Counted from the stretch's first letter, positions 4,152 through 53,761 are shown. The stretch is 64,000 nt of DNA from Trichoplax sp. H2 (GCA_003344405.1 NOWV01000001.1:1550001-1614000), one strand, 5' to 3'. The notes: generated by a model from the letters alone, not told the origin. A program made the numbers and translations.

Positions 4152-7100
4152 TGACGCTTAACCTGTCACATTGGCGCAACTATAACATGAAACTATAATT
4201 GCTCACAGTAGCAATTATCTACGAGAATTTTTATATCATCACATTTTTCATCCTGTCCAAATTTACAAAACATCGATGGATAGCATATAGTTGGACTGTA
4301 TTGTAAATGAATCCATCTTATTTTTAAGATTACTTGATCCTTTATAATATATTGGCTTAGAACTGTTTATACTATCTTCACTTAATCAATCTGTATGTAT
4401 CGTTTGATAAATTTTTATATATGGACTATTTGACGACAGCACTTTAAAAAAGCTATTTTATTTGAAATCTATGATAGCCTTTTAATGTTATTGCAATATG
4501 GTGATAATGCTTTACATTTAGCGGTAATGTAAGCTCAATATATCATTTAGAAGTAGACGATTGAGCTAGTTTTTACAGTATTACAAGAAGATAGATTATT
4601 CAGCAATTTTTACATATTTATGTATTTACCACAATGTAGATTTACTCATTCTTTATATGATAGCTTTTTGTATTTTCTATTTTACGTACGAAAATTCTCA
4701 ACGCGGAAATAATCTATGCTACTACTGCAATAGCTACTTGTAGATTATGTAATTATATACGGTACGTAAGTTTGCCTGCCATTGAAAGCATGATAAGCGA
4801 TAGGTCAAATCATTTTTTGAGGGGATTGTGATTTATACTTAGATAAATATCAATAAGATGTATGTTACCCTTTTTTAGCTTATCGATTGGTATTTTCTAT
4901 TTTAAGTAACTGCTTCTTATCGTTAAGATAGCAATTATGATGACGGACTGCAACGATGATATGTTGTTAGTAATTTACTCGTAAGACACACCATTTTTAA
5001 TATATTCATAATTATTTAACATTGGTTATGATAGTTATAAAAATATGCTACGATCACTTTCTACGCTATGATCTAAATGACCGAACCAAAGTAGTTTCTA
5101 GATCTAGTATTATTGTAATTTGGATAATAATCATTTTTTTGTTGCAATCTACGCGTACCTATTAATTATTACAGCTACTATATTAATCAGCGATGATGCC
5201 ATTTCAATTCACGACAATTGTATTACTGTTCTTAAAGTTTTACTTGGAGTTAGCTTTAAACAATGCATCAAGACTTTTTTACACGCATTATCATCTCGAA
5301 ATTTTTTGCCTTTGTACTAGTAGCAAATCATTTAATTATGTTATTTTCATGCTTATTATCACTGCACCAATTTTTGTGCAATCGTAAAATTCTTATTGGA
5401 ATACAATCTAAAATCAGGTTGCTTCAGAAAATAAAACACTTTAAGTAATTATGCTATTATTCATCTTATCTGTATGATTTATTGCCAAAGTAGATCTGCA
5501 TGGTTAGTTTAAGGTCGTTGGAAGCGATTATGTTTCGTGATTAATCACTCGTAAAGGTAATTTCTAGTGTTTACTTCGGCTTTATGCGGTAGGTAAACTA
5601 TAATCATTAGAATTGGAATTCCATCAACTTTATTTTAACCTAGTTTGTCTTAAATTCATATGAATTTGCGTGAATATCTCATCATTTATTGTACTTAATT
5701 ACTAGATATCCTATTCGATATCGATATAACTATACTACCTGAAATTAGTTCAGTTGCTTAGATTATTCAGTTGATAAATAGGGCTAAGAATGTCAGCACT
5801 CTCTTTAAAATTTCAATTGCGACTATGAAATCGCTATCTTCTATTTTTTCAATAGATATTTATTTCAGTAGTTCCTACCTCAACCGTAGATGTGTTTGCT
5901 TTACCTCTACACTCTCGTTCATAGACTGTGGTAGGGACTCTTATAGATCTTCTTACTGCTATATAAGATTGAAACGAATTATGTAGACATAAATAGTACC
6001 TCAAATTCGAATTAACTACACTTTGCTACAGTTAATTTCAATTACAAAATTGGGTATTTCTCTCATCAGAAAATTCTTGTAATTTATCCTTATTAAATAG
6101 CATATTTACGATCAGATACTTTTGCAGTAGTATTGGCTTCTGTTATAAGCTAGGAATAGCTTAACTTGTAAAAAGGTTTGAGAGAGTATCTTCTAACCCT
6201 ATACCAAAGTTATTTGGAATACTAATCAATTACCGTAGTATATTAAATTTACTGTATCAGTATTAAGTTAATTAATTCTTAATAATAGTTTAACAAACAC
6301 ATATTAGTCTATCCTACCAAGATATTTCATCTAAACTTAGAAATGGTATTTTCAACCTGAATATCCTTCGAGGTGATAGATAAAATCCAGTTAAACTAGT
6401 TGGCATTTACTATTTAGTCTATCTAATCATAAATTAAGGATTGCTAATGCATCAACTACTAACCATTAAAGTTACGATAATTATTAATGCATTAATTAAT
6501 GAAAGGATCATTCCGATGCTAAAGTGGAGAGTAACTTTACTTTCGAGGCATTTAATTAGGCAACTGATCATTTTAGAAAATGGAAGGGTTAGGGTTGGAG
6601 TTAAATTTCAGTCGAATTCTCTATACTAAATTAAGTACATGATTTTATAATCTAATCGATAATACTATATATTCCATCAAAAGATTATCATTCACCATTC
6701 TGACGATAGGCTCGATTGAATTTTAAAATTTCAAAGGCAAGGGTACTTTATTTAAGTTATATAGATGATTTATAGCATGACGAGGATAGTGAGGAGTCTA
6801 TAATTACAATGATTATGTTTCTATCGTTATAGTTAGGTCAGATCGACGCTGATATCCTAGTAATAATAGCACAAATAATTGGATTCTCACCATCATTAAA
6901 TGCTATCAATTCAAATGGTAATTAAATTAATGCTGGCACAATTCGATGAATAACAAGTAAGATAATAAAGCAAGCCATTTTTTTCTTTAGTAATATTGAT
7001 TTATATATTGTTGATAGATAATAGCAGGTTTATTTACATTGCAGTAGAGGATTCCATTATAAACTGAATATTGTCTCTGCTGATAGATTAATAGGGCACG

Positions 7101-8351
7101 ACGATCGATATGAGTAATATTTCTTATTTTATTCTATCGTCCATGTCATCAATCACGGACAAGGCTAATTTCTACTTTGGTGCTCCAACCAGCTTGTGCT
7201 AGCAGCAATTGATAAGTTCGTCAGGAAAATTGAAAGCCTCATCTCATTTAATCATCTACTGTTAGTCTTGCCTAAATCATCAATTTTGCTTGTTCTGGAA
7301 GGAGTCGAAATTGCAAGTATAATTAGAACTTATGGGCTGTATTCTCCGGTAGAAGAATCGAATTTAGACAGAAAAAAATGCAACTAAAAGAAATAAATTT
7401 TTGACATCAATTATTGGTTCGTTGACTTGATAAACTCTCAGTTGTGCATTCTAGTAGCTAGTATATAATCAGTATTATTAAAGTAATTTAGCAATCATAG
7501 CTAAAGCTGAATCAAATTGTTTTAGACTCTAAACTATCACCTTTGGCATTCTCATAATCGACAAGAATTTTCTTAATTAATTGACTGTTAGCGTTGATTT
7601 TCCAGCTTCATTTGAAACTATTCAAATCCATTTGTACGTCTCTGCAACCAATTTGTTTGTCAACAACGTTAGAACCATTTTTAAGGCTTCATTTCAAGTT
7701 TTACTTAAATTATTTGGGACTTTTCATCCTCAGTAACACTGGACAACTTCGAATCCGTCGATTTTTGCTGCATTTTAGCCAGAGATTATCGCGCTATTTT
7801 CTTGGTTATAACTTGAATATTACCAACTTGCTATTATCATTCCATAGCTAGTACATAATCAAGGATAACAAGACTACTTTTGCAAACTTTACAAAGGCTT
7901 TCTTGAAATCATTTTAAGATCACAATTACCACTGCTAACTCTCTCAACAAATCTAACTTGGCAAGTTTCTTAATTTAGCTAAAGATTATATAGGAGCGCT
8001 TTTTATTGATTATTTTTGAGCATTTTATATCTTCCTCTATTCTATTTTAGTTTCCTCCAATGCCTAAAATTGACAAGACCAGTACTATTACTTTGCTTCA
8101 TGTCTTGGCTATGCGATACTATCAATTTCTGAAAGAATAAGTTTATTGGTTAACCAAGATAGATAAAAGAATCTAGTCAACGATACAACAGCTAAAATAA
8201 ATTTATTAGGATCGACGTCATTTATCTGTTTCAGAGTAATTGTGCAAATTCATTACAACATTGATAGTTTATGAAGTAATTTGAACCATCTTGGATAAAT
8301 TAGGATGAAAGAGTAATTTTAAGAGCAGCAGTTAATAGTATTAATAACAAT

Positions 8352-11300
8352 ATGAGACAAGCTGTTTCTTATCCATTTCTCAACGTAGTAATTATAATAA
8401 TTGTATGGCTAAACAGCGCTAATAATGTTGAAGGAAATATCTTACAACAATGTCGCCGGGAACATATCTTTTCTGATCATAGTTTTCAACGGATCTACAA
8501 ACCTGGTGATATCACATTAACAGGACTATTTCCGATTCACGCCGAGCTAATTGCTTATAATACAACTGGTGAAGAGGAAAGAGTGAATTTTTTCAATTTT
8601 CACGGTTTTAATTGGGCTTTAGCCATGGCCTATACTGCAGAATGGGTTAATAACCAAACCGATTTTCTACCCAATATAACGCTCGGATACGATATTCGCG
8701 ATACCTTTTATAACATTGAGCATGCAGTCAATCAAGCGATTAATCTAACTCGTTCTATCGTTGTTCAATCTACATGTAGCCGACATGGCAATGAATGCCA
8801 TTCTAAGCAATCTCCTGCTAGCCAATTTAATCAACAACAGCAACAAGTATCGCCATTAGTGTCCATTGGTCCATCGTATGCATGGATTGCATCACCAGTA
8901 GCCGATATTTTCTCAACTTATGGTATTCCATTAATCAGTTATGAATCAGCGATTGCAAATGACCAAAATAGCAATCAACTATTCCTCCAAGTACGCCATT
9001 CTAATTTTTTACAAGCTAGTGTTATTGCTAATTTAATTGAAAAATTTCAATGGTCTTATATCACTGTCATCAGTAGTGATGATGAATTTGGCAGGGTTGG
9101 ACTGCAATCCTTGCAAGAGGAATTAAAATCAAGAGATAATATATGCATTGGACGTAATTTCGTTATTCCAGGTGGCGATCAAATTGACTTTACTCAGATA
9201 AAAAGAATGATTACAACTATCAAAAATGATATCAATATTCAGGTTTGTGTTGTCTATACCAATGTATTTCAAGGTTATGCAGTTTTTGAAGAAGCAACAA
9301 GGCAAAAATTAACTCAAACAACCTGGATTACTCCTGGTGAATTGGGCCAATCGCCAGGTATCCTTCACCAGAATAAAGATGTTTTGCAAGGGATGTTAAC
9401 CGTAACCTTGCCAGATAAAAATCCTCCGATGGATTTTGAATTATTCCTTGCATCGAATGAAAATTCTCTCGGATTGAACACATCGGTCTTGCCGAATTCT
9501 TGGCAGCACGAATATCTCAGTAAAGTTCAACAATGTCGTTCTGAACGCTTTACTATGAATGCTAATCAAAATTGTAACTTAAAATGTTCTTATCGGAAAT
9601 TTTTCTGCTATGGCATAAATAATATTGAAGGCTTTGATTACGTTATCAATGCAGTCTTAGCTGTAGCAACTGCTATCGAAGCCATGAAAGATTGTCGCCC
9701 TGGCTATGGGCTATTAAATGGCAAACGATGCCCCAAACCTCCGCCAAATATCAATCCAAGAGATCTATGGACTTACCTCCGAGCTGTGGAATTTAAGGAT
9801 CTCTTCGGCTACAACTTTTCATTTAATCATCATCCTGATTCTCATTTTCTTATTAAAAATCTACAACTAGATGCTCAAGGTAAGCCAAAATTAGTTCCAG
9901 TGGGAGAATGGCTAGCCAATGATCAAAATGCCACGTTACAAATGAATTATAGCAAGATTATATGGAGAAATAATGCCCACAAGATACCTGTATCACGTTG
10001 TAATAAACCATGCCCACCCGGCTATCAAATCTTTTATAAAACATCACAGTGCTGCTGGAATTGTATACCTTGTAAAGAGAATCATTATAGTGAAAAAGAA
10101 GGTAAGGAAAAGTAAGAAAGGCTAATAATTACCGTACTTCTAAGTAGGAATTACGAGTAATAACTAAGCAATTACTTTAAATAAAGTAGTTTTACTTTTC
10201 TTCGACAAAGGTATATTTTAATATTATATTCCAGATGTAAACTTTTTGTAACTATCAGGCTCTATATTCGAAGCTACAATCATCATTTAATATGTTTTTA
10301 ACATGAGTACGCAGCAATTATAAAATTCATATGACTTGAGGTTGTAGCTTGAATGTAACTATAATACTCAGTGTCTAGAGTTGAAAACGAGCAGTTATAT
10401 TGATAGACATGAGTACTGTATAGTAAATCTAAAAATTGTCAAACTTATATAACTTTAAGATTGTAGTATTAGTGTATTTTAATATTAAATGTCAAGAATC
10501 AAACAGGATGAGTTATAGTAAATGGAATAAATTGAGTTATTAAATTCATATAACTTGAAGTTTGCGCTATTAACGAAATTTTAATTCCGGTACTAAATGC
10601 CCAGAATTAAACATGATCAGTTATATTAAATAAGATTAATCGAGTAATTAATTAGGCTTATATCCTTGGTTCTAATCTTCCTTTTCATCTACTCTTTGTA
10701 ATGGAAAATCTTTTTCTCCTTCCACGATCTAGATTCCATTAGCTGTTCTCTATGTAAACAGGGATATCGAATCAACTTAAATAGTACAGGTTGTAATAAA
10801 TTACCTGTTACTTATATCAGCTTATCCGATGGTAATACTATCGCCATTATTTTTACATTCTGTAGCTTGTTAGGGTGTTTAGTAACTCTAGCTTTTATAT
10901 CATTATTTATACGCTATCGCAATAATGGCACTATTAAAGCAAGTAGTATCGAATTAAGTATTTTACTCTTAGTATTTATTATGATTTCATTTAGTTTACC
11001 AATTTTATTCTGTTTAAAACCAACTGATGCATTATGCCGTGTAAGATCATTTTTATCTTTTAATACATTTACACCTCTATTAGCGTTACTATTAGCTAAA
11101 ACCCATCGAATTGTACGACTATTCCATGCTCGATTATCGACATTAATGGATAGAAAATGTCTAAGCAACGCTTATATTTTACTACAAGGAGCAATAATCA
11201 GCGCTGTACCATTAGCTTTATCCATTATTACTTTGGCTTTGTATCCATCTAAAGCTGCTTACGTTTACGACGATTATTTAGTCGTTTCTCTAGAATGTCA

Positions 11301-11823
11301 AGGATCCAAATCTCCTGTTGCTGCTATATTTCAATATATTATGTATGCCTATTTTGGCATCTTGGCACTTTATTGTGCCTACTTAGCTTATCGACAACGG
11401 CGTTTACCTGCACGATTTAATGAGGCTCGTCAAATTGCATTTCCTATGTGTGCCATTTGTCTGACAAGTGTTGCAACTATCATTACAGACTTTAGTACAT
11501 CTGGTGAAGCTAAAGTGATTGTCTATTCCATGGTCATTATTGTTAATTGTGCAGTCATTCTAGTATTCCTATTTGTACCTAAAATTCATTCATTACGCCA
11601 AAATATTAATAAGGATAACGTCCATGGCAATGGACTAGGCAGTCGATTGCGTGATATTATGTCCCTTGGTTTTACCATTGGCTTTATATCCACAAAAAAT
11701 CGATCATCGACTAACGATGATATCAATATTGCAAATATAATTGCTCCTGAAGGTGAAACTTTTACGACAGATGTAATTCGCGAATCGGAAATTGGGCCAG
11801 CTTCTTTAGAAAATGAATCGTAG
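8352..11823 (+). CDS. Class C GPCR #1, CaSR/GPRC6A/V2R-like (VFT + Cys-rich domain + 7TM), ~946 aa, 2 coding exons
   Basis: Exon 8352-10101 (G|GTAAGG) joins 10733-11823 (TCTAG|AT) in phase, giving YSEKE-D-SISCSLC. Signal peptide, GDITLTGLFPIH, FLPNITLGYDIRDT, PVSRCNKPCPPG...CCWNCIPC, then 7TM motifs LAKTHRIVRLF, LPARFNEARQI, FVPKI. Confidence 0.93.
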
Positions 11824-13724
11824 TGTCTCAAAGCTAGTTGAAGTAGATCAGTTATTCATGCATTAATAACGATCGAAATAGAATTTAAGACTATCGATTA
11901 TTCTTACTATTAGAAGTTAGCAATTTTTATCAGGATATACGATATTTAGTCAATAATCTTGGTCGACGATTTTATTAGAATAAAAAATTTTTCTTTATTA
12001 TTATTAAGCTTTCAATAAATATAATTTTATTCCAACTTTAATCTCCCAACAGTCAAGAATAGATCGTTTAATTACAAAGCCAACATTGATATCTCAATCT
12101 ATTTGTATTATTTTGTCTTCGTATTATAGCTTAAGAACTAATATAAGATTTCCTATAAATTTCGAAATCAATTCAGACAGTAAATTATATTTAAAAATCT
12201 ATTTTTGAAAGCTAGAGTATTAATTGGTAATTGAAATTTGGTTATAAGACTCTCATCTAAGCAAGTTATTTATTGAGGCAAAAGAAATCGACAGTGTAGT
12301 ATTTTCAATGATACTTTAAAGCATGCTAGTCGATTGTTTAAAATTCTTTATGCATAAGTCTTGAGCGATTAGAGTAGAGGTAATAATTAGCCGATCTAAA
12401 AGGCTTTATTAGCTTAACCAAAGCTTACTTTAAAATATTATCGCCTATTTTATCTTGTTTCCCTTCTAAGTCTAGAGATACTGTTGTAGAATAACCGAAT
12501 AATGTAAAAAAACTAAGCATGGGATAATTTTAGATAGTAGCATATTCATGATCCTGGATTTAATCGTCGATTTCATTTATGACATATCTAATTGGTAAGT
12601 TTAGCTCACTAAGCTAATAGAGATCTATTCTTCGTTTCCGTCCACTACCAAGCTAAATATGCGATATCATTGTCTTGAATTTAAGTGTTTGACAGATTTT
12701 TCCAGCAAGTCTTATTATTTACTTACAGCGAAATGCATTTAAATGTCTGCAGTACATTATCGATAGTTTCAATTTAAGTACATCGTAATATTTGTATGTG
12801 ATCGAGTAGATTTTAACATTATAGAATGCTCATATGATGAATGGAAATTATGATTTTGAGTTTCATTGCGGACAATATCCTAGATTTTTTATTCAAAGCA
12901 TAGGAACAAATATTCATGAGCTATATTCATTAGTTTTATTCTCAAATTTATGCCATGTTAGTTAAGTTATAACTCTAGATATTTGAGGCTACCAATTTAG
13001 AAATAGTCCTGATATCATCAAGAGGGTACTAATAAGCTGTTTCATAGACGAAAAATAATATGAATATATTATTATTTCTCTTAGAATAAATAACCTCTCT
13101 GTGATGTTTTGTATACAGTAATAAACGTATATTACTTAATGACTATAAATAATGTCGTTTCAAGGAAAAGAAAACTATAGAGTTCATGGGAAAGATCTCA
13201 CTGTTAGAATTACAAAAGTAACTATCATGACGTTATCATAATCAAATTATTATCTCCCTCCTTTTACACCTATTCCATTTTTAATTAGAATTGTATTGAT
13301 ATAAATTCAACTATTTCAAATTGGAATGTTTTCACAATGATTATTTGTCTATCAAAGCCTTCCTTTATTGTTCTGTTACAAACTAAATTAATGCGTAGTT
13401 TATTAATTAATATCAGCGACGTTACTGAGTATCTCTCTATATGTATTACGCTAAAATTATCATTTTTGCAAGCATCATCCTTCCAAATAATACGCCTTTG
13501 TTGACATACAGTTGCCATCCTGTATTTATTGACTGTTAAGATGGTAGGAGAACTATTAATATAGAGATATCAGTTGATATTCTGCGCATGAAAGTGGATA
13601 ATTAATTATTATTTATGCCTTCAGGGGTACAGGATGAGATAGAGTAGAACAATTTCAACGCTAATTGCTTAATTCAATGTATGTTAGATCGCTATAAAAG
13701 TAATTTTGTAAAGCTTTTGTGAAT

Positions 13725-14240
13725 AATAAGTTTAAGTGCATTAATGCTCATCGTGTGACAAGATGATTGAATGTTTATCGAATATGCTAAATAATTTTTA
13801 ATAAAAGTACCATAGGACCGCGACTACTAAGGGCGTACGGTACTTTTGATACCATTCTCGGATATCTCGAATAGTTAAATAATTATCTAAATCGTAAATT
13901 TTCTATATATAGTCATGTAAATGCCGTAAAACAATTTCTAGTTCTACAATAGTTTTCTACTAATTAAGTTTACCTATGTCCAATAAGTTTAAGTGTATTA
14001 ATGCTCATCGTGTGGCAAGATGATTGAATGTTTATTGAATATGTTAAATAGTTTTAATAAAAATGCCGTTGGATTGAGACTAAGGGCATAAAATACTTTT
14101 GGTAACATTCTCAGATATTTCGAATAGTTAAATACTTATCTCAATAGAAAAAATTCTGTACAGTATACAGTCATATAAGTACCGTAAGAAAATTTCTAGT
14201 TCTACAATAGTTTTCTATTACCTAAGTTCCCATATGCCTC
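13725..14240. repeat. Diverged tandem duplication, 2 x ~257 bp
   Basis: AATAAGTTTAAGTGYATTAATGCTCATCGTGTG starts at 13725 and 13982; both copies end near AATTTCTAGTTCTACAATAGTTTTCTA. Confidence 0.9.
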
Positions 14241-15185
14241 AGTAAATGGACGAGATCAACATCTTTCAAGCCAAAACTAACTTCGACTGATTAATGATTG
14301 ATCTTCATGCATCTGACAGTGAATCCATACATTTTTTTCTTCAGGGATTGTTTATGACATATATAAACAAAATATGCGAAATTGATGTTAATATAATATT
14401 AAACTACCATACAATAATCAATCAGAAAATTTTAACTATGATTTAAAATAACAACCGAATTTTCATACTTTATTAAGCTTTTCAATCTACCAATCTCTCA
14501 AGTTATCTTAATATGTCTGTAAGAATCATTTTTCATTAGACTGCAACTATCAATTGATAATACACCAACGTTGCCTTACATTTATCTACCGTTGATAAGA
14601 GGAAATACAAGGATAGCAAGTTGAAGAATAGCCTGTTATTTATAATGTGTTAATTAAGTCGGACACTGATTAATTATAATACCGTGATAGCGTTACAAAA
14701 GATAGTGAATAAGGCATAAAAACAATACTTTAGGTCAATAATTCATTTACTTAACAATGCAATATTAATAAGATGTTTATAGCTAGTTCACGGTCATTAC
14801 GAAGGATGGGATCGATGTTTAGCGATAGACATAGTTTAGGCATAGTCAACCAAAATACTTCTTTATTTCAACGGATTAGAATTTCCCCTCTAGACAAACA
14901 GTGGATTTTTGTTGATTGAAAAAAAAGTGATAGGCTCTATTTATGAGTCATGTTCTCGTCGTCAATAGAGGAATCTTTTGACACATGGACTACATTGTGG
15001 CAATGTTAAAGATGAATTTGATGTAGAGTATCGATTGCTAAATAACACTCAGAAAATAGTGATACGAATCATTATAAGCAATGAATCATAGATGAAAAAA
15101 TTGCAGTTAAATTGTTCAGATAGGTAGAACTCCTTTTACGAATATTAAAGTTTTCTTCCAAGAAACAATTCTTAACAACATCGTT

Positions 15186-17786
15186 ATGTGGAGTAGTAAA
15201 CGAATTCATTGGCTATCATGGCTCTCAACATGTATTATCCTAGTTATTGGGATAGTATCAACTACAAATGCGGCAATTGGTAGAATGGTTAAAGATGGCG
15301 ATGTTATTATCGGCGGCCTATTTCCTGTCCATATTGAAAATCAGCTTTCGCATACGTTATGTAATGAAACAACCGAAAAAGGCGCAATATGGGTAAAAGC
15401 AATGATGTATGCTATTGATAGTATTAATAATAATACAGAGTTATTGCCTACTGTTACATTAGGCTACGATATTCGTGATACATGCCATAATTTACAGCGT
15501 GCTATTAAAGCTTCGATGGACTATGTTGTTGATCCAGATTTAGACATTTCGGTTGCATCGTACTTAAATAGTTCTGATGGCACGCTCGTGATGAGAAATG
15601 ATTTCGATATTTTTAGTAGTGTCAATAAAATTAAGCTATCACAAGTCGCTGCTGTTGTCGGTGCATCAAGTTCACATATTTCTATGGCGGTAGTTGATAT
15701 ATTGCGCGTATACTGTTTACCAGTCATAAGTTATTCATCCACTAGTCGATTATTGAGTAATAAAATACGTTATAGTTCGTTTTTAAGGACAGTACCATCG
15801 GATGTTCAACAAGCTCGGGCTATCGCTCAATTAATTCGCTACTTTAATTGGACTTATGTGTCGACCATTGCTGTTGATACAGCTTATGGCCGCCAGGGTA
15901 TACAATTATTTCATGAAGCAGCTGCTGCCTTAGGCATTTGTACATCACCAGTGAGCGAAATATTTTCAGCGTCTAATCCAAAATCCGAATTACCACGAAT
16001 TATCCAAAAATTGAAGCAGCAAAGTAATGCAACTGTAATCGTTTTTTATAGCGATGAATATAACGCCATGTTATTACTCAATGAAGCTGATAAACAAAAT
16101 TTAGTTGGACGAACGTGGATTGCAAGCGAGTCATGGGGTGATTCTAGTTATATTACAAGAATGCCACCGGGTGTTATTGGCGGTATGCTAGGGGTAGTAC
16201 CTCAAACTACTAGTATGGACTATTTTAAAAATTATCTTAAACAATTCGCACCACCTAATCCGATCGCAGATCCGTGGTTTTATCAGTACCTTTACGATCG
16301 ATATAACACTAAAATTGAATCTAATGGCGATAAACTAAATCGTAACGAATTGATCAAGTTTGAAGTTGATGATTTACCGATGGGTAAATCACAAAACGTT
16401 ATCAACGCAGTCTATGCAATTGCACATGGATTAGACAAATTATTACGGCATGATGGCAATCAACATTTACAACAACCAATTGATCCAAGTCGATTATTGG
16501 CTTTTATTAATAATCAAACATTTATAGATCAAGCTAAAAATGTTGTTCAATTTGATGATCATGGTGATCCAGTGCCTAACTTTGTCGTTGTTAATTTACA
16601 ACCTGATCGTCAGCCATTTGGTCGTATGAAATATAAAATTGTTGGTCACTGGCAATTAGTTAATAATAAATCTTCAGAGATGGAATTAGTGATGAAAGAT
16701 GATGATATTATTTGGAATGGATGGACACATAATCTACCGATATCGACTTGTAGCGAACAATGTAGTCCTGGTCAAGAAGTTGTATATTTAACTTGGAAAT
16801 CAAGTTGTTGTTGGCGATGCCGAAGATGTTCAACTGGTTTTATTAGTAATACAACAGATGCAACAAGTTGCCAGAAATGCCAATTAGGTTTTAAAACAAA
16901 TCTAAATCGAACAAAGTGTTTGCAATTGCCTATTGAATTCCTTAATTGGAATAATGCCGTTGCCATAACTATCATCACACTTGCTAATGTTGGGATAGCT
17001 ATTAATTTTTTATTTCTTGGTATTTTAATTTGGAATCGAAATCATAAAGTGATTCAAGCTACTAGTAAAGGCTATCTTTTCGTTGTGTGGATTCTGGTTA
17101 ACGCTGGTTTTTTGCTATGCTACTTATACATTGGTGAACCGACTGATATTCTTTGCACTATTCAACCCATCTATTTTGGACTCAACTATACCATTGTTTT
17201 ATTAGCTATTACGTTGAGAGAGATGACATTAATGTTTAAAGGTTATCAAGAAGAAAAAATTGCTAGTACTTATCTTATTCGGTACTTTCAGTCATGGGGA
17301 TTTCGTTATTTTTTCTCCTTTGCAATATTATGTGGCCAAGTCACTATCTTAGGCATTTGGATGTTTACGTCCCCTCAAACGTCTGTGAAAAATTATAAAC
17401 ATTCTGATCGCATCTTATCTGGATGTTCACGTGAATTTGATTCTTCTTTTCCAGCAACCACAAGTATCGTCTACGTTATTATGATATGTTTATTCACCAC
17501 TTATATCAGTTTTAAAGTACGCCACTTACCATATTGTAATTATGAGGGCAAATACATTAACTTTTGCTTACTATGTATTTTATTAGGCTGGATCGCCTTT
17601 ATACCGTCTTATTTAGCTACTGCGGGTATTGGCCATGTTAGTTTAATTTGTTTTTCAGTTATTATTAATTCGAATTGTGTGCAATGGTTTATAATATATC
17701 CTTCAGTTTATCAGATTGTTATTAGGCCTCATTTCGAGACATACCATAGGTCATGGTCTTTTAGTAAATTAAGTCGACGTAATTAA
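15186..17786 (+). CDS. Class C GPCR #2, CaSR-like, 866 aa, intronless CDS
   Basis: Single ORF with signal peptide, DGDVIIGGLFPVH, LLPTVTLGYDIRDTC, VVGASSS, ISYSSTSRLLSNK...FLRTVPSD, WIASESW, Cys-rich domain (STCSEQCSPG...CCWRCRRC) and seven hydrophobic segments. Confidence 0.96.
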   Translation: MWSSKRIHWLSWLSTCIILVIGIVSTTNAAIGRMVKDGDVIIGGLFPVHIENQLSHTLCNETTEKGAIWVKAMMYAIDSINNNTELLPTVTLGYDIRDTCHNLQRAIKASMDYVVDPDLDISVASYLNSSDGTLVMRNDFDIFSSVNKIKLSQVAAVVGASSSHISMAVVDILRVYCLPVISYSSTSRLLSNKIRYSSFLRTVPSDVQQARAIAQLIRYFNWTYVSTIAVDTAYGRQGIQLFHEAAAALGICTSPVSEIFSASNPKSELPRIIQKLKQQSNATVIVFYSDEYNAMLLLNEADKQNLVGRTWIASESWGDSSYITRMPPGVIGGMLGVVPQTTSMDYFKNYLKQFAPPNPIADPWFYQYLYDRYNTKIESNGDKLNRNELIKFEVDDLPMGKSQNVINAVYAIAHGLDKLLRHDGNQHLQQPIDPSRLLAFINNQTFIDQAKNVVQFDDHGDPVPNFVVVNLQPDRQPFGRMKYKIVGHWQLVNNKSSEMELVMKDDDIIWNGWTHNLPISTCSEQCSPGQEVVYLTWKSSCCWRCRRCSTGFISNTTDATSCQKCQLGFKTNLNRTKCLQLPIEFLNWNNAVAITIITLANVGIAINFLFLGILIWNRNHKVIQATSKGYLFVVWILVNAGFLLCYLYIGEPTDILCTIQPIYFGLNYTIVLLAITLREMTLMFKGYQEEKIASTYLIRYFQSWGFRYFFSFAILCGQVTILGIWMFTSPQTSVKNYKHSDRILSGCSREFDSSFPATTSIVYVIMICLFTTYISFKVRHLPYCNYEGKYINFCLLCILLGWIAFIPSYLATAGIGHVSLICFSVIINSNCVQWFIIYPSVYQIVIRPHFETYHRSWSFSKLSRRN

Positions 17787-19353
17787 GATATTCTCATTCA
17801 ACGTATATTACTAATTTCTTCTGTTTATGAACTACCATTTAATATTAATATAGCGCTTATGTCATGTATTTATTCTTAATTTCTTAGTTTGTTTTTTTCA
17901 ATTGGAAGGGGCTAATGTGTAAAGTAGATAGTGTACTGTATATATAAATATTTGTCATGGGTACTGCTGCCAATATTTAAAATGTAGCGGTATATGAAAT
18001 ATGTATAAATACTGGATATTACATTACATGGGTAAAAGTAATACTTCACGTAATGTAAGTATATTCGAGATGTTAGTTTTTCTAAAGGCAATAACTAATA
18101 AGTATGACATTGCTAATTTATTAATATATTATCAATTTAAAGGAGCTTTGCTGGATAATCTTTTAATTTAATTACAATTATATTTAAGTTTATGTAACAA
18201 AATACTTGTACATCGGTGAATTATTTAATTACATAGCTGTAAATTGATTGCTAGATATGGTTAAAAGAATTAATTTCTGTTGATTTTGCTTATCAATACA
18301 GCTAATTTCATTTAAGTTTGACTAGCGCTTTACGTATAGCCGTAACGGAGACGAAAATAACGTTCTGCTAATCTGTAATAATTTTCAAACTCCGAAAGTG
18401 AAATTGTGCGTTTCTTTGTAGGCATATAAAAATATACGGTAAAAACTTATGCCCAGTAAATCATATATATAGATTAAAATTATCTTTAATAATAAAATAA
18501 TAAATATACGAAATCTTGAGTGTTATTATTCTAAAATCCTGCGGGTAAAAATGAACATCGTTGAGATCTTCTGCAACTATCAATAGCCCCTTTACGTACG
18601 CTTACAGAAAATGTGGAAAGTGGAATTGGGTGTCATTTTAATTTCTCATATTTATTAATTTTAGCTAGCCATCATTATACTGTCCATTCGAATACTTGAT
18701 GACATTAAGTTAAACTTAATATTATTTTAATTTACACATTAGAACAGTATCGTAGTGTCAAGCTTGAATACTTAAGAGTAGTCACTGTATATTATTTTCA
18801 GGACACTTAAAGTTAATTGATCATGCAAATCATTATGGTCGTAGACCAAAGATTTATCTTTCTAAGGGTATGCATGCATTGTAGGGTTAGGATCATTGCT
18901 ATCTTCAAGACAACTTAGACTTTATTTACAGTAGAGGTATAAATACTAATAAGAACTCATTCGCCGCAGTTCGGTTATGGCTACAGAAATTAATAAAATT
19001 GACAATAAGCTTATTAGCCTTTGATGGAGATACACTGTAGCACCGTTGCATTTATATTCAAATAAAGTACGATATTATATCCAGAAATGATATAAGAAAA
19101 ATGAGAATCTTGGCTTTCTTTATGATTTTAGTAATGCGACAAATACAGCATACTCATGGTTCCGCTTATAATCGTTTTATTTATTACAGTATACAGTTAC
19201 ACGTGTGCAAATTTAAGTTTTGAATAATGAACAACGATTTCGCATTGAGGTGGCATTATTATTTACAACGTGCTATTTTAAAATATATTAATTGAACTTT
19301 TAGATCACTTTACACTACATGTAGTGTTGTGTTAAATCGAAAGAAAGCAAAAT

Positions 19354-22300
19354 TTAAGCCTCTTCACCAACGACATGCTTTTTTCTTTCAGGGACACGTT
19401 CGACTTTATCTGGCTTGGTGTACCGCAACCTGTTCTCCTCCCTAAAGAGCAACCAAAAAAACAGTTTAGCACCCAACATACAGTAAATACTGGTAGATAT
19501 AGCATTACAGTTAACATCGCTATAGCTGTTTTCCAAACTACTATATAATAGTAAGATATCGTACTTTCTCTTTTGAGAATCGAGTATGACTCTTTTTTCG
19601 GCTGCTGCTCTATGAATCGGTTTCGGAACGTGACGATGCCTAATGTGAAGTTAATAGATATATAATTTTGGTCACTGCCATTTGAATCTAGCTTACAGTT
19701 TGGATGAATGTTTCAGTAAAAAGTTATATTTATACCTTAGGATTCGTTTTACTTGAGGATGATTTTCGAATTTTTTCTTCAGTTTTTTATTATAATTATT
19801 ACTGGCCTTCTGCCTTGCGGTGAGCTAAAGAATACCAAGAAAAACATATTATTGCTATCAATTTTTTACAACGACTGGGGATGAAAATAAAATAAGTAAT
19901 TGACTTTATACGTACAGCTCCGAGTCTAGCTGAGGAATCCGCTTTCCATAATCTGCAAGAACCAAGGTACATCGATTACATGACAACATATTTCTTTAAA
20001 TTTCTTGCAATTATTTTACCTTAAGTTTGTTTCATCACTCCCAGAGACAATAAAATTATTATCCATACTCCATTTCACACAGAATACCCTTTGCATACGT
20101 CTAGTATGATATACTTCCCTGAATATTATAAATTTGTAGTAAAATACATTTAAGATGCGAATCAATTTTCATAGACTCAAACTTCATATACGAAATTTCG
20201 CTATTAAGCAAAGCGAAAGTATCCAAAGACGGTAATAAATAGTGAACTTACCGACTTTTTCCTTTGTTAACAGGGAAAATGCGAACAGTTTTATCAAAAC
20301 TACCAGACACAAATTCTTGTCCAGTCGGAGAATAGTCAACGTCCAAAACTGCAGAAACGTGATCAACATGGACACATAATGCTGAATCCAAACGACGCAT
20401 ATCGAAAGTATACAAGCTATAAGGAGTTGATGATATATTTATTACTATATGATCACGCCATCAAATGGTATAAAAATTTCTTTAAGTAACTGCCTATCGT
20501 AAATATTTAGTTAGATCGAAATTTAAGCCTTAACTCGATTACTTACTTGCCATCTTCATTAGCAGCAGTGAAATGGTATGCCTATGATAAATTATATTAA
20601 AAGTGCAAATAAAAACTTAGATAACACGTAATAGTACATACAGTCGATATGCAATGGAAAATACACTTTATCAGCAACCTCTAAAGGATTCCATGCAACT
20701 GTATTTGTCTTCATTTCGAGAATAACCTAGTTACACGATCAATTGGCGTTAATAAGCGTTCACTAGAGTAATAATGAAAGCTGTAAAATTTATTTTGGTA
20801 TGCGAATATCAATATATACCTTTCTCATAGGTGTTGAAGCTCGTACATCGTATAAAGCAATCGATCGATCGGAGCCCGTACATGCTAATACGTTAGTCTA
20901 TTCATAAAAGTTGAAAAGCATATAAAAACTGATTGGCTTTATTTCAAGTCATTAATGATGGTTTCATTATTCTGAAATTAGTCATAAATATCAACCTTAT
21001 TGAATATAATAAGTACCTCAATGGGATTAAATCGGACACCGATGTGACTTTCGATGCCCCACGTAAAAGATCGAATAGGCTCGGTTTTTTCTTCATCCCA
21101 AATTTCAACTACTTGACCGCATGTAGCGAATATATCACTCTTCCAGCTATGGTCAATAGCGTTGAATATATTCTGAATACAAAAGTAATTCGTTAGGTTA
21201 ACATCATGCAATGAAAATGCTCGCAAAGGAAGCAACGCTAAAAGGCATACTGCAGAAGCAGATTGAATAGATAGAAAGAAAGTGTATTGGGTAGGGTAAT
21301 TGTTGACGAAATATTGCAGATAAACATGTTATTATAATGTCATTAGAATTAAAGTTGGTACGAAGCTACGAATTGAGTCACCCTACTTTACTCAATATTG
21401 TCATATCCGGTTCCTTTAAAGAGTTCTTAGTAGCTAAATCTAGCGACCAAATTTTAATTGACTTATCATCTCCACCCTACAGCAAGATATGGAAATTAAT
21501 ACAAGTGTAAATTGTGCATACGTATGCGTAGTTTAGCGATATAAAAAGAGAATTAATATCTATGCAACATATCTACTGTAATTGACTTGTCGGTTTATCA
21601 CTATATTTATCTTAGTTGACAACAACATTCATATAGTACGTATGTGGTAATATTATTAAGTACTGTAGGTTATTTATTGATTGAGCGGTATATCAATTAT
21701 TATCAAGGACTGAACTGTGACGCATATAAAATACGAGTGGCACTGATCTGTTGATATTGCACTAGGCGAGTCTACCTCCAAATTACGTTACTGTTGTTGG
21801 TGGTAGACAATGTTATTTCTTAATCGATTCAAGTTATTATGGGCTGTCCAACCTACCGAAATTAGCTTTTGACTTGTAGGAGATATACATAGGCCTCGGA
21901 CAAAACCACTGTATGATACAATCAAAGATCAAGTAGAATCTATTATTACTATTGTATTTAATCATCAGTAAATAAGAGACGATGAACTACCATTACTATC
22001 ATAATACAGCATTTATGCAATAACTACAGCAACAAGAAAATATGTCTACTGAAATCACTGTGCTATATTCTGTACAGCACTGTCTAAATGATAATCCATC
22101 GCTATGCAACCTGTGGGCGTTGACAGCCGATAAGCATTTTCTTGTCGATAAGTTCCATATCCTAATCTATAAAAGACAGAACAGCCATTAGCCACTAGCC
22201 TTGATAGATCTATCTTCAGATCATTCAAATCGCTCTAGCGATAGCGTGTCAATTTGTTGTAGTAATTAAAATGGTAGTCACAAAGTACGTCTTGGAACCC

Positions 22301-22724
22301 ATGACTTCATTCGGTTGTATAGTACAGTACAATAGTCATGTCCATCTTAGAAGAGAGTGGATGGTCACCCATCTTAATGTTATCGCTATTTAATGAGTTT
22401 TAACAGTGTCTCCATCAAGATTATGTATCGAAGGAAAGAACATACTTCACCATCACAGCAGCCACTCGCAATACAAGACAGGCTAACGGGATGCTTTGCT
22501 AGTGAGCAAATAGCATCAGCATGTCCATCCAGTGAATGGATGAATGGTTTAGCAAATAATCGTTCTAACTTGGCTGCATTGAGTGCTCTAGTATACTCGC
22601 GTGCAGCCTGGAACGGATGAAGCTTTGGATCAGTATTTCTAGGCTGCTTAAAAATATCATGTCGTGTTTGACGTAAATAATCAGCAGGATTTCTTGAGAT
22701 AACTTTAATTTTCGCCTTTTCCAT
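19354..22724 (-). CDS. DCAF13: DDB1- and CUL4-associated factor 13 (WDSOF1/Sof1; U3 processome WD40 protein), ~448 aa, 14 exons
   Basis: Exons 22724-22446, 22166-22111, 21908-21857, 21476-21387, 21172-21017, 20897-20820, 20726-20679, 20581-20547, 20416-20252, 20118-20020, 19952-19916, 19824-19736, 19639-19565, 19441-19354 sum to 1347 nt in frame. Motifs KVISRNP...HPFQAAREYTRALNAAKLERLFAKPF, AWNPLEAYHFTAANED, DYSPTGQEFVSGSFDK, YHTRRMQRVF, RHRHVPK. Confidence 0.95.
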
Positions 22725-22819
22725 TTGGTCCACCAGTACAAATGGAATTAATCCTCCATTTTTCGCAAGTCAGTAGCCAGCATGGTCTCGCATGGAAGGC
22801 ATGGGCAAGTCATATCGTA

Positions 22820-52267: not shown

Positions 52268-53761
52268 CTGTAGTTCGGTTATTGTGAATCGATGTTATCG
52301 CGAAGCTAATATTCGATGATTGCCAACGACAGTACTATCGTAGAAATTGTGGATGACTAATATTAGCCAATGGACTAATTATGGTACAAAATTGATGTGG
52401 CTAGAAACACTGTAGTGGTTAAGATGCCCTTGGGAGAAAGGGACTAGACTTGAATAGGAGAGTAGTGACATCTTAAGTAGAATGATTTACATTGTAAAAG
52501 ATAATGATCTACTATTTGAGAAAGGTATTTTGTTTGATGATTCATGTTCACGCTGCTTGGACTGTACATTAATCAGGTGGTCAGAAATGGATTGAACGAA
52601 ATGGATATATAATATAGAACATATACATGTACATTATTGTACAGTACAGTCAGTAAGAACTGCAGAGATGAGCTTACAGCACAGTACAGTAAGAACTGAA
52701 GAGATGATTTCATGAGAGAAAAGAGACTTCACTTCGCTTTGAGCTTGGAATGCTGCCAATAGTAGACTAGATTCTTGTAGCAATTAATAATTGCCTTACT
52801 ATTCCTAAAATCTTGTAATAAAAGCCTTTTAGAGAATACTATTTGACTAAGATTGTTATTTTGAGACACTTTTATTCTACTCAGGTATTTGCTGTTCACA
52901 ACATAATCCACCACTAGTATGCTTACTATCGATAGAATACAGTACATTGCAATATATTTTACTTCATATTGNNNNNNNNNNNNNNNNNNNNCTGTAGTTC
53001 GGTTATTGTGAATCGATGTTATCGCGAAGCTAATATTCGATGATTGCCAACGACAGTACTATCGTAGAAATTGTGGATGACTAATATTAGCCAATGGACT
53101 AATTATGGTACAAAATTGATGTGGCTAGAAACACTGTAGTGGTTAAGATGCCCTTGGGAGAAAGGGACTAGGCTTGAATAGGAGAGTAGTGACATCTTAA
53201 GTAGAATGATTTAGATTGTAAAAGATAATGATCTACTATATGAGAAGGTATTTTGTTTGATGACTCATGTCTGCTTGGACTGTACTGTAGATTAGTAATA
53301 TATAACATATACTGTACATTATTGTACAGTACAGTCAGTAAGAACTGCAGAGATGAGCTCACGAGGGAGGAAAGACTTCACTTCGCTTTGACCTTGGAAT
53401 AGATTAATCAAGTGGTCATAAATAGCACAGTACAGTAAGAACTGAAGAGATGATTTCATGAGAGAAAAGAGACTTCACTTCGCTTTGAGCTTGGAATGCT
53501 GCCAATAGTAGACTTGATTCTTGTAGCAATTCATAATTGCCTTACTATTTCCTAGACTAGATTCTTGTAGCAATTCATAATTGCCTTACTATTCCTAAAA
53601 TCTTGTAATAAAAGCCTTTTAGAGAATACTATTTGACTAAGATAGTTATTTTGAGATACTTTTATTCCACTCAGGTATTTGCTGTTCACAACATAATCCA
53701 CCACTAGTATGCTTACTATCGATAGAATACAGTACATTGCAATATATTTTACTTCATATTG
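52268..53761. repeat. ~0.7-kb direct duplication on either side of the assembly gap (52268-52971 vs 52992-53761), probably uncollapsed haplotypes
   Basis: Both copies start CTGTAGTTCGGTTATTGTG and end TTTTACTTCATATTG. Copy 1 ends exactly at the Ns and copy 2 starts exactly after them. Confidence 0.85.
52972..52991. other. Assembly gap (20 N)
   Basis: Run of N. Confidence 1.

What the first reader, a model, noticed from the sequence alone, without database searches (positions are those of the whole stretch)
8352..17786. Tandem class C GPCR pair with complementary degeneration: candidate ligand-binder + signal-transducer heterodimer
Seen: receptor #2 keeps the amino-acid-binding residues equivalent to CaSR S147, S170, Y218 and E297 (GASSS, YSST, DTAYG, WIASESW). 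Its 7TM motifs are altered: TM3 KTxRI becomes ITLRE (ionic-lock Lys lost), ICL3 FNEAK becomes NYEGK, TM7 PKxY becomes PSVY, and the tail is only ~20 aa. Receptor #1 is the mirror image. All four binding residues are replaced (GPSYA, YESA, DDEFG, WITPG), while KTHRIVRLF, LPARFNEAR, FVPKI and an ~80-aa tail are canonical. Established: class C receptors are obligate dimers, and GABA-B1/B2 split ligand binding from G-protein coupling. Inference: these neighbours may form a CaSR-clade heterodimeric amino-acid/nutrient sensor with the same division of labour.
Basis: partly seen in the sequence, partly recalled or inferred. Interest (0 to 1): 0.75.

Follow-up and report, generated by a model that had tools for sequence, protein, structure and literature searches.

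The report
Neighbouring placozoan class C receptor genes
Two neighbouring, expressed nutrient-sensor-type receptor genes of the simple animal Trichoplax differ in opposite halves, which fits a two-part receptor, but nothing yet shows that they work together.

Summary
The window comes from a placozoan. The best protein matches are named Trichoplax sp. H2 (100% identity) and T. adhaerens (98%).

It holds two complete class C GPCR genes on the + strand:
- R1: 8352-10101 plus 10733-11823, 946 aa.
- R2: 15186-17786, 866 aa, single exon.

Both are transcribed, and the R1 intron is spliced as predicted in 4 of 4 runs.

The ligand-domain claims hold. R2 keeps the CaSR S147/S170/Y218/E297 equivalents (S, T, Y, E). 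R1 has A, A, F, G, and each of these states occurs in at most 3 of about 255 homologues.

The 7TM claims are only partly right:
- R2's "lost" TM3 lysine is a two-residue misalignment; it is K to R.
- R2 keeps the ionic-lock Glu and the FNEAK Lys.
- R2 does lack the KTxR arginine, the CaSR F801 equivalent (N) and the TM7 Lys (S). Its short tail is real.
- R1 is not fully canonical either (PKIH in TM7).

The two receptors are 26% identical and are not sister paralogues. Published orthogroup tables number their orthologues consecutively in three further placozoans. One module table puts both in the same co-expression module in 1 of 4 species. The closest R1 relative keeps 3 of the 4 pocket residues.

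The heterodimer idea remains plausible and testable, but it is unshown (about 0.18).

The parts
8352..10101 (+). R1 exon 1: signal peptide, Venus-flytrap domain (Pfam ANF_receptor, aa 88-494 = 8613-9833) and the first part of the cysteine-rich domain (aa 545-581)
   Evidence: ORF and splice donor; Pfam; identical to public model P0121; RNA contigs
10102..10732 (+). R1 intron, 631 bases, GT..AG, phase 1
   Evidence: Sequence; skipped in contigs of 4 of 4 runs laid (table 5)
10733..11823 (+). R1 exon 2: end of the cysteine-rich domain, 7TM domain (Pfam 7tm_3, about 10831-11583) and a 78-aa C-terminal tail with stop
11824..15185 (.). Intergenic spacer of 3.36 kb, including the R1 3' UTR and the R2 5' UTR. 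No contig bridges the two genes.
   Evidence: table 8: R1 contigs end at or before 12201 and R2 contigs start at or after 14813; only short low-depth pieces lie between
15186..17786 (+). R2 single-exon CDS, 866 aa: Venus-flytrap domain (aa 71-473 = 15396-16604), cysteine-rich domain (aa 518-568), 7TM (aa 586-839 = 16941-17702), 18-aa tail after the TM7-end RP, and stop
   Evidence: RNA contigs 14813-18454 without joints; 98% identical to T. adhaerens TRIADDRAFT_11108
20016..22769 (-). Next gene downstream: multi-exon WD40 gene whose N-terminal exon reads like DCAF13/Sof1. It serves as a synteny anchor and is not part of the receptor pair.
   Evidence: ORF pieces. The family name comes from my recognition of the N-terminal sequence and from the neighbouring orthogroup name in the published table; no Pfam scan was run.

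Best explanation
R1 and R2 are two anciently diverged members of the large placozoan expansion of CaSR/mGluR-like class C GPCRs. They have stayed next to each other, and each is a complete, expressed receptor under selection.

R2 most likely senses an L-alpha-amino acid or a close analogue in its Venus-flytrap cleft, because all four anchoring residues are kept. It signals through an atypical intracellular face.

R1 has lost the alpha-amino-acid anchor in steps: first the S147 equivalent, then the other three in the Trichoplax lineage. It most likely recognises a different ligand or acts through non-orthosteric sites.

By default each works as a dimer of its own kind, as class C receptors do. 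On this reading the opposite-looking divergence reflects fast, mosaic evolution within the expansion, not a fixed division of labour.

Shown: gene structure, transcription, residue states and their rarity, non-sister relationship, conserved neighbourhood.
Inferred: ligand classes and homodimeric action.
For: Both genes are complete and transcribed:
- Both carry ANF_receptor, NCD3G and 7tm_3.
- Both are transcribed and correctly spliced.

They are old, separate paralogues:
- They are 26% identical.
- In a FastTree of 239 sequences, R2 sits in an 11-member clade (support 0.89) with the named Trichoplax paralogues P0011, P0013, P0036 and P0053. R1 sits on a long branch (1.30) elsewhere.
- The family is a known expansion: 34 mGluR-like plus 37 GABA-B-like genes in Trichoplax (PMC10133484, passages read).
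- Tandem class C genes are common. Many top representatives are gene models of 1,700-3,900 aa with up to 13 matched stretches, most simply read as fused neighbouring receptors.

R2 keeps much of the 7TM core: Arg at K3.50, Glu at 6.35, the FNEAK Lys, P7.50, Y7.53 and the CaSR L797 equivalent.

R1 is not fully canonical in 7TM. It has PKIH and no IILxxPExN stretch. Its 7TM HMM score is 188 bits, against 194-253 for four Trichoplax paralogues.

Similar motif changes are scattered within R2's clade:
- P0251: Y218F, E297S and CY for FN.
- P0279: E297I and no KTxR.
- P0181 and P0036: P7.50 replaced by Y or N.

The R1 pocket changed recently. Its closest relative P0122 (60% identity, ending at the same exon boundary) has A, T, Y, D at the four sites.

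R1 is under purifying selection. Of the 11 listed coding variants in RNA contigs, 9 are synonymous, including one in the Ala200 codon. About 22% would be expected at random, and the binomial P is about 2e-4.

R1 has two Cys in the loop that holds the CaSR inter-subunit disulfide, conserved in P0122. R2 has none.
Against: Both proteins are outliers in opposite domains.
- R1 VFT: 314 bits, about the 3rd percentile.
- R2 VFT: 469 bits, about the 54th percentile.
- R2 7TM: 151 bits, about the 7th percentile and below all four named Trichoplax paralogues.

R2's changes fall where signalling is known to be sensitive.
- The CaSR F801 equivalent is Asn. F801A is cited as impairing IP1 accumulation (PMC9545990, passage read).
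- K7.51 is Ser, against K or R in 227 of 238 homologues.

R1 carries the exact S147A and S170A substitutions that abolish the CaSR response (PMC4977154, passages read).

The pair's orthologues have consecutive gene numbers in the three species with ordered ids. They share a co-expression module in one species.

The homologue sample was chosen by similarity to R2 and R1. It holds only four named Trichoplax paralogues, so the base rate within the roughly 71 Trichoplax class C genes is unknown.
Confidence: 0.55

Rival explanations
1. R1 and R2 form a heterodimer in which R2's flytrap binds the amino acid and R1's 7TM and long tail couple to the G protein in trans. This would be a GABA-B-like division of labour arising independently in a CaSR-like lineage.
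For: - R2 keeps S, T, Y, E at the four anchor sites. R1 has A, A, F, G, each state found in at most 3 of about 255 homologues.
- R2 lacks the KTxR Arg, the F801 equivalent and K7.51, and has only an 18-aa tail, confirmed by unspliced RNA contigs.
- R1 keeps KTHRI, FNEAR and PK, and has a 78-aa tail.
- R1 is under purifying selection, so its altered flytrap is maintained and not decaying.
- Both mRNAs are present in the same 4 libraries.
- Orthogroups OG_8217 and OG_8218 are one-to-one in four placozoans, with consecutive gene numbers in three.
- Both orthologues fall in module HoiH23.violet, with membership 0.708 and 0.504.
- Engineered CaSR dimers combining a signalling-dead protomer that has an intact flytrap with a flytrap-dead protomer that has an intact 7TM reach wild-type maximal responses in trans (PMC9545990, abstract and passages read).
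Against: - Nothing here shows binding.
- P0122 keeps T, Y, D, so three of R1's four losses are recent. They cannot underlie an old division of labour matching the old linkage.
- R2 keeps R3.50, E6.35, the FNEAK Lys and the L797 equivalent.
- R1 lacks Y7.53 and the following conserved stretch.
- In the module table the pair shares a module in only 1 of 4 species. In T. adhaerens only the R1 orthologue is listed, and in H2 and H13 neither is.
- Flanking orthogroups (DCAF13, SLC22A18) are also kept in order, so the linkage reflects general synteny.
- R2 has no Cys in the dimer loop, while R1 has two.
- R2's tail is too short for a GABA-B-type coiled coil and has no RSRR motif.
- The two are not sister paralogues.
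Confidence: 0.18
2. One or both receptors do need a partner, but the partner is another of the many placozoan class C paralogues. Examples would be R1 as a shared co-receptor in the manner of T1R3 or family-C V2Rs, or R2 borrowing a different signalling subunit. The adjacency would then be incidental.
For: - Trichoplax has 34 mGluR-like and 37 GABA-B-like genes (PMC10133484).
- Placozoan peptidergic cell types express a median of 25 GPCRs each (PMC10580291, passage read), so many potential partners coexist.
- R2's intracellular changes and R1's pocket loss each suggest incomplete stand-alone function.
Against: No candidate partner was identified. The same lack of any interaction data applies. 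The conserved neighbourhood and the shared module in H23 point, if anywhere, to each other.
Confidence: 0.12
3. R1 is losing function: relaxed constraint on the way to a pseudogene.
For: R1 progressively lost family-invariant pocket residues relative to P0122. It has a long branch and a low VFT HMM score.
Against: - The ORF is intact, correctly spliced and transcribed.
- 9 of 11 listed coding variants are synonymous.
- One-to-one orthologues are retained in four species.
Confidence: 0.04

Closest known systems
Calcium-sensing receptor (CaSR) and GPRC6A, vertebrate homodimeric amino-acid/cation sensors
   Same: - Same three-domain architecture.
- CaSR chains are the best solved-structure matches of R2 (E 2e-114).
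- R2 keeps the four L-Trp-site residues.
- R1 has two Cys in the loop that carries the CaSR C129/C131 disulfide.
   Different: - There is no one-to-one orthology. Both receptors sit in or near placozoan and cnidarian clades, at 26-35% identity to the nearest non-placozoan proteins.
- R1 lacks all four site residues.
- R2 lacks the loop Cys, the F801 equivalent and K7.51.
GABA-B1/GABA-B2 obligate heterodimer
   Same: It is a conceptual match: one subunit with a competent flytrap and one without, and G-protein coupling assigned to the other subunit. This description of GABA-B is textbook knowledge that I recalled. The abstract of 10.1101/2020.04.21.053488 appeared in a search listing only.
   Different: - Both receptors here have a cysteine-rich domain, which GABA-B lacks (the GABA-B side is recalled).
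- R2's 18-aa tail has no room for a coiled coil and carries no RSRR retention signal.
- They belong to the CaSR/mGluR-like branch, not the GABA-B-like branch.
- Heterodimerisation is not shown.
T1R taste receptors (T1R1 or T1R2 with T1R3), and V2R/OlfC receptors with a common co-receptor
   Same: They are class C receptors of the CaSR-related branch in which unlike paralogues pair. T1R3 chains are among R1's solved-structure matches (E about 1e-30).
   Different: There is no orthology. In T1Rs both flytraps can bind ligands (recalled). No evidence of pairing exists here.
Engineered complementary CaSR mutant dimers (flytrap-dead plus signalling-dead)
   Same: They show that in this clade a dimer with one working flytrap and one working 7TM, located in different protomers, signals in trans (PMC9545990).
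   Different: They are artificial point mutants of one protein, forced together with GABA-B tails. R1 and R2 are natural paralogues at 26% identity.

Membership tests
Class C (glutamate-family) GPCR | N-terminal Venus-flytrap domain (Pfam ANF_receptor) | tested here: met
   R1 1.4e-43 and R2 4e-66, both far above the cut-off
Class C (glutamate-family) GPCR | Nine-cysteine domain (NCD3G) between flytrap and 7TM | tested here: met
   R2 scores 49.9 bits against a cut-off of 38.9. R1 exon 1 alone scores 36.3 bits because the intron splits the domain; the rest (SISCSLCKQGY...GC) follows in exon 2.
Class C (glutamate-family) GPCR | 7tm_3 heptahelical domain | tested here: met
   R1 175 bits and R2 131 bits, against a cut-off of 33.5
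CaSR/GPRC6A-type L-amino-acid sensor | Alpha-amino-acid anchoring residues at CaSR S147, S170, Y218 and E297 | tested here: met
   Met for R2: S163, T186, Y234, E315. Not met for R1: A177, A200, F246, G329. The role of these residues is taken from PMC4977154.
CaSR/GPRC6A-type L-amino-acid sensor | Orthology to vertebrate CaSR or GPRC6A | tested here: not met
   R2 groups with Trichoplax paralogues and R1 sits on a long branch. Neither is sister to the vertebrate sequences in the tree (FastTree, midpoint root, no outgroup test).
CaSR/GPRC6A-type L-amino-acid sensor | Cysteine(s) in the lobe-1 loop forming the inter-subunit disulfide (CaSR C129/C131) | tested here: inconclusive
   R1 has two Cys in this loop, shared with P0122. 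R2 has none, as do P0281 and P0251. The loop is aligned only at loop level.
Canonical class C G-protein-coupling face | K3.50 with the KTxR motif, FNEAK in ICL3 (E6.35), and FxPKxY in TM7 | tested here: inconclusive
   R1 has KTHR, FNEAR and PKIH (Tyr replaced by His). R2 has R--E (Lys to Arg, Arg lost), NYEGK (Glu and Lys kept, Phe and Asn lost) and PSVY (Lys lost). The functional effect was not tested.
GABA-B-type obligate heterodimer with division of labour | One ligand-competent and one ligand-incompetent flytrap | tested here: inconclusive
   The sequence pattern fits. However, R1's closest relative keeps 3 of the 4 residues, and a different ligand for R1 is not excluded.
GABA-B-type obligate heterodimer with division of labour | C-terminal coiled-coil pairing and an RSRR retention signal masked by the partner | tested here: not met
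   R2's tail is 18 aa after the TM7-end RP and has no R-x-R. R1's tail has no evident heptad pattern. This is by inspection of the sequences; no coiled-coil predictor was run.
GABA-B-type obligate heterodimer with division of labour | Physical heterodimerisation and trans-activation | not testable with these tools
   This needs co-expression, FRET or co-immunoprecipitation, and signalling assays. No complex prediction was run (see Tried and rejected).

The most novel reading that the evidence does not exclude
R1 and R2 are a natural CaSR-clade heterodimer, conserved across Placozoa. R2's flytrap senses an amino acid, and R1's 7TM and tail activate the G protein in trans. This would be an independent, pre-bilaterian origin of the GABA-B/T1R style of subunit specialisation, caught in progress: the R1 pocket would still be intact at 3 of 4 sites in a sister lineage.
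Probability: 0.15. Interest if true: 0.7.

Novelty: new member of a known kind. Interest (0 to 1): 0.35.

Why it matters
Placozoans have no neurons, yet they respond to amino acids and carry more amino-acid-type receptors than any other sequenced animal (PMC10133484). None of their class C receptors has been deorphanised, as far as my four literature searches show.

This pair is a concrete, cheap test case. R2 has a textbook amino-acid site, so it is a good first candidate for deorphanisation. Co-expressing it with R1 would show directly whether subunit specialisation of class C dimers arose outside bilaterians.

If the two act independently, the finding is an ordinary example of mosaic divergence in a lineage-specific receptor expansion.

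Tried and rejected
- **Own-genome search for paralogues.** No genome is held for this window. The base rate of such motif states and of tandem pairs among the roughly 71 Trichoplax class C genes could not be measured.
- **Earlier notes of this scan.** Nothing was found.
- **Search for short fragments of R2's 7TM (residues 560-866, 'shorter' lengths).** 580 candidates, none scored. The full HMMER library search found no relative closer than about 35-40% identity apart from the T. adhaerens orthologue. Clusters are at 50% identity, so closer orthologues could be hidden. I therefore could not see R2's 7TM in other placozoan genera.
- **Metagenome scan with R2.** One locus, L001, at 29% identity. 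It is not an orthologue and was not used.
- **Contig depth of R1 against R2.** The tool states that depth cannot rank genes, so I use presence only. Parts without cover (12.5-14.8 kb) are not interpreted.
- **Module annotation.** HoiH23.violet and Tadh.lightcyan are absent from the annotated module sheet. No cell type can be assigned.
- **Complex prediction, not run.** Any two class C flytraps are expected to pass because they resemble solved dimers. One job cannot compare heterodimer with homodimer, so a pass would not have changed my odds.
- **Structure prediction, not run.** The TM3 register was settled by two alignments and by counting from the conserved Cys.
- **ER-retention idea.** R2's C-terminal ...SRRN has no R-x-R or di-lysine signal. 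R1's tail contains an R-L-R tripeptide, which I regard as chance.
- **bioRxiv supplements.** These were closed and none were needed.

Full report
**What is there**

The window is AT-rich eukaryotic DNA, 29-41% G+C. Between 8.3 and 17.8 kb it holds two long + strand reading frames.

R1 starts at ATG 8352. It has a donor AG|GTAAGG after 10101 and an acceptor ...TAG| before 10733 (phase 1, joining G+AT into Asp), and it stops at 11823. The spliced 946-aa product equals the public protein P0121, named 'Metabotropic glutamate receptor 7, partial [Trichoplax sp. H2]'. That model carries 16 extra residues upstream of the Met.

R2 is a single ORF, 15186-17786, 866 aa. It is 98% identical to T. adhaerens TRIADDRAFT_11108. 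That H1 model lacks residues 135-150 and both ends, and otherwise differs by three substitutions.

Pfam finds ANF_receptor, NCD3G and 7tm_3 in both. A tblastn of both proteins against the window finds no third class C gene and puts R1 and R2 at about 26% identity. The organism is therefore a placozoan, by the names the searches returned.

**Transcription**

Four runs were laid: two on record as RNA and two guessed RNA, from three studies. Contigs from 4 of 4 runs skip 631 bases with GT..AG ends exactly at the predicted R1 intron.

The long contigs are:
- R1: 7903-12201.
- R2: 14813-18454, without any joint.

No contig links the two genes. R2's stop, and so its short tail, is real. These are Logan contigs, so depth cannot rank the genes. 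I claim only that both mRNAs occur in the same libraries.

**Flytrap residues**

I aligned each protein by pairwise phmmer to CaSR chains with native numbering.
- R2 has S163, T186, Y234, E315 at CaSR S147, S170, Y218, E297.
- R1 has A177, A200, F246, G329 at the same positions.

Geng et al. (PMC4977154, passages read) report that S147, A168 and S170 hold the ligand's carboxylate and amine, that E297 and Y218 contact L-Trp, and that S147A, S170A, Y218A or E297K each abolish the CaSR response. R1 carries two of these exact substitutions.

I then aligned 259 proteins:
- R1 and R2;
- 145 of the 146 hits (P0121 omitted because it equals R1);
- 112 of the 138 new representatives (26 dropped for lengths outside 700-1400 aa).

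In that alignment the R1 states are rare:

| Position | R1 state | Count among non-gap cells |
|---|---|---|
| S147 | A | 2 of 254 |
| S170 | A | 1 of 254 |
| Y218 | F | 3 of 256 |
| E297 | G | 2 of 257 |

The sample was picked by similarity to R2 and R1, so it favours canonical receptors.

**7TM motifs**

Three lines of evidence put R2 R678 at K3.50: phmmer, MAFFT, and my count from the conserved TM3 Cys in the sequences. In CaSR, R1 and R2 alike, the FG pair lies at +7/+8 from that Cys and the basic residue at +21. This is a Lys-to-Arg change shared with 26 of 242 homologues, among them the Trichoplax paralogue P0053.

R2 really lacks the following:
- The Arg of KTxR. MAFFT shows a two-residue deletion (R--EMTLMF) that keeps the downstream Phe.
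- The CaSR F801 and N802 equivalents, which are N785 and Y786 (3 of 244 and 3 of 245).
- K7.51, which is S840 (2 of 238: R2 and its H1 orthologue).

R2 keeps E6.35, the FNEAK Lys, P7.50, Y7.53 and the L797 equivalent. F801A is cited as impairing IP1 accumulation in CaSR (PMC9545990, passage read), so at least one R2 change lies at a signalling-sensitive site.

R1 has KTHRI, FNEAR and PK. Its PKxY Tyr is His, however, and the conserved IILxxPExN stretch after TM7 is missing. The phmmer alignment to mGluR1 stops there.

**Domain-wise divergence**

I built HMMs from the homologues, excluding R1, R2, P0001 and P0122, and scored each domain.

| Protein | VFT score | 7TM score |
|---|---|---|
| R1 | 314 bits (about 3rd percentile of 244) | 188 bits (13th) |
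| R2 | 469 bits (54th) | 151 bits (7th) |
| Four named Trichoplax paralogues | 404-526 bits | 194-253 bits |

The training sequences score themselves, so the percentiles are pessimistic. The asymmetry is nevertheless real: R2 combines a typical flytrap with the most divergent 7TM of the Trichoplax set, and R1 has a very divergent flytrap. R1's 7TM is merely ordinary-to-low, not a mirror image.

**Relationships**

I ran FastTree on 771 columns and 239 sequences. Twenty were dropped for gaps, including the fragment P0122.
- R2 and its H1 orthologue fall in an 11-member clade (support 0.89) with P0011, P0013, P0036 and P0053 (named Trichoplax) and five unnamed proteins.
- Its sister is P0279 (support 0.985), at only about 29% identity.
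- R1 sits on a branch of length 1.30 in the neighbouring clade, with weak placement (0.74, 0.15).

They are not sister genes, so this is not a recent tandem duplication.

Other members of R2's clade carry their own changes at the same motifs:
- P0251: Y218F, E297S, CY for FN, P7.50R.
- P0279: E297I, no K3.50 or KTxR, Y7.53N.
- P0181: P7.50Y.
- P0036: P7.50N.
- P0013: N802C.

I do not know the linkage of these genes, nor that the unnamed ones are placozoan.

**Related genomes**

P0122 is the only close relative of R1's exon 1 (60% identity, 100% coverage; the next best is 32%). It comes from an unnamed assembly contig and ends at the same exon boundary. It shares GPSYA (Ala at S147) but has the family-consensus Thr, Tyr and Asp at the other three sites (YESTS, DDEYG, WIATDAW). 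Three of R1's four losses are therefore derived within the Trichoplax lineage.

In Najle et al. 2023 (PMC10580291, supplementary files 3 and 4 searched), TRIADDRAFT_11108 sits in OG_8218 with TrispH2_000668, Hhon_g00023 and PlH23_008518. The preceding orthogroup, OG_8217 ('glutamate_metabotropic_receptor_7'), holds TrispH2_000667, Tadh_wf_g7079, Hhon_g00024 and PlH23_008517. OG_8219 is DCAF13, with 000669, g00022 and 008519.

I equate R1 with 000667 and R2 with 000668 on three grounds:
- the name printed;
- the consecutive gene numbers;
- the DCAF13-like WD40 gene found on the minus strand at about 20.0-22.8 kb.

On that reading both genes are one-to-one in four species of three genera and stay neighbours. 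The flanking genes do too, so the linkage is general synteny.

File 3 (WGCNA modules) lists both H23 orthologues in HoiH23.violet, with membership 0.708 and 0.504. It lists only the R1 orthologue in T. adhaerens (Tadh.lightcyan, 0.543), and neither in H2 or H13. Neither module appears in the annotated module sheet. File 4 is marked as cut when stored.

**Selection**

One search listed 40 of 95 differing positions. Of those, 11 fall in the R1 CDS and 10 in the R2 CDS.
- R1: 9 synonymous and 2 not. One synonymous change lies in the Ala200 codon.
- R2: 6 synonymous and 4 not. Two of the four lie among the first 14 residues, which I take to be the signal peptide.

About 22% synonymous would be expected for random changes. 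The binomial P is about 2e-4 for R1 and 0.03 for R2, computed at p = 0.27. R1 is maintained, not decaying.

**Reading**

The family context is a published expansion: 34 mGluR-like and 37 GABA-B-like genes in Trichoplax (PMC10133484). Tandem class C genes are common. Many top library representatives are 1,700-3,900-aa models with up to 13 matched stretches.

I judge it most likely (0.55) that these are two independently acting receptors. R2 would be an amino-acid-type sensor with an unusual intracellular face. R1 would have a remodelled orthosteric site.

The heterodimer model (0.18) is mechanistically feasible. Engineered CaSR dimers with the working flytrap and the working 7TM in different protomers reach wild-type maxima in trans (PMC9545990). 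The model gains a little from the conserved neighbourhood and the shared module.

It loses weight from five points:
- the recency of R1's pocket losses;
- R2's retained core residues;
- R1's atypical TM7 end;
- the absence of loop cysteines in R2, against two in R1;
- the lack of any GABA-B-style tail device.

**Literature**

Four literature searches found no paper that proposes or tests class C heterodimers in placozoans. I read only the listings and the passages cited above.

Noticed in passing
window 15186-17786 versus P0001: The public T. adhaerens model of R2's orthologue (827 aa) lacks residues 135-150 of the uninterrupted ORF and both ends. RNA contigs on this window show no joint there. 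The internal gap therefore looks like a gene-model artefact, at least for this strain.
   Followed up: partly
window 33660-35504 (-): A 614-aa Ser/Asn-rich ORF without any Pfam match. It carries a string of D-Y-[VIM]-[DN]-[MI] motifs (DYVDMAP, DYVDMEP, NYMNIE, DYINMEP, DYYDMI, DYIDIDF, DYIEMD). These resemble YxxM phosphotyrosine docking sites of IRS/Gab-type adaptors; the resemblance is recalled and was not tested.
   Followed up: no
window 1-2285 (+): Open-ended ORFs encode a long low-complexity Ala/Thr/Ser-rich stretch followed by a C2 domain (Pfam 2e-18). This is probably the end of a membrane-trafficking or synaptotagmin-like gene.
   Followed up: partly
window 20016-22769 (-): A multi-exon WD40 gene whose first exon reads like DCAF13/Sof1. 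It matches the orthogroup that follows the receptor pair in the published placozoan table.
   Followed up: partly
window 52972-52991: A run of 20 N, which marks an assembly gap.
   Followed up: no
window 11480-11540 (R1 tail): R1's cytoplasmic tail holds an R-L-R tripeptide (GSRLRD). It is formally an R-x-R, the type of the GABA-B1 retention signal, but it sits in the putative signalling subunit. I take it to be chance.
   Followed up: no
P0279 and P0251 (unnamed proteins in R2's clade): R2's sister P0279 lacks the whole KTxR motif and has Ile at the E297 position. P0251 has Phe and Ser at Y218 and E297. Loss of 'canonical' class C motifs seems frequent in this presumably placozoan clade.
   Followed up: partly
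L001 (metagenome contig, 5401-7647): A single-exon-like class C GPCR relative (29% identity to R2) on an 8.9-kb metagenome contig. It is presumably from another marine invertebrate.
   Followed up: no
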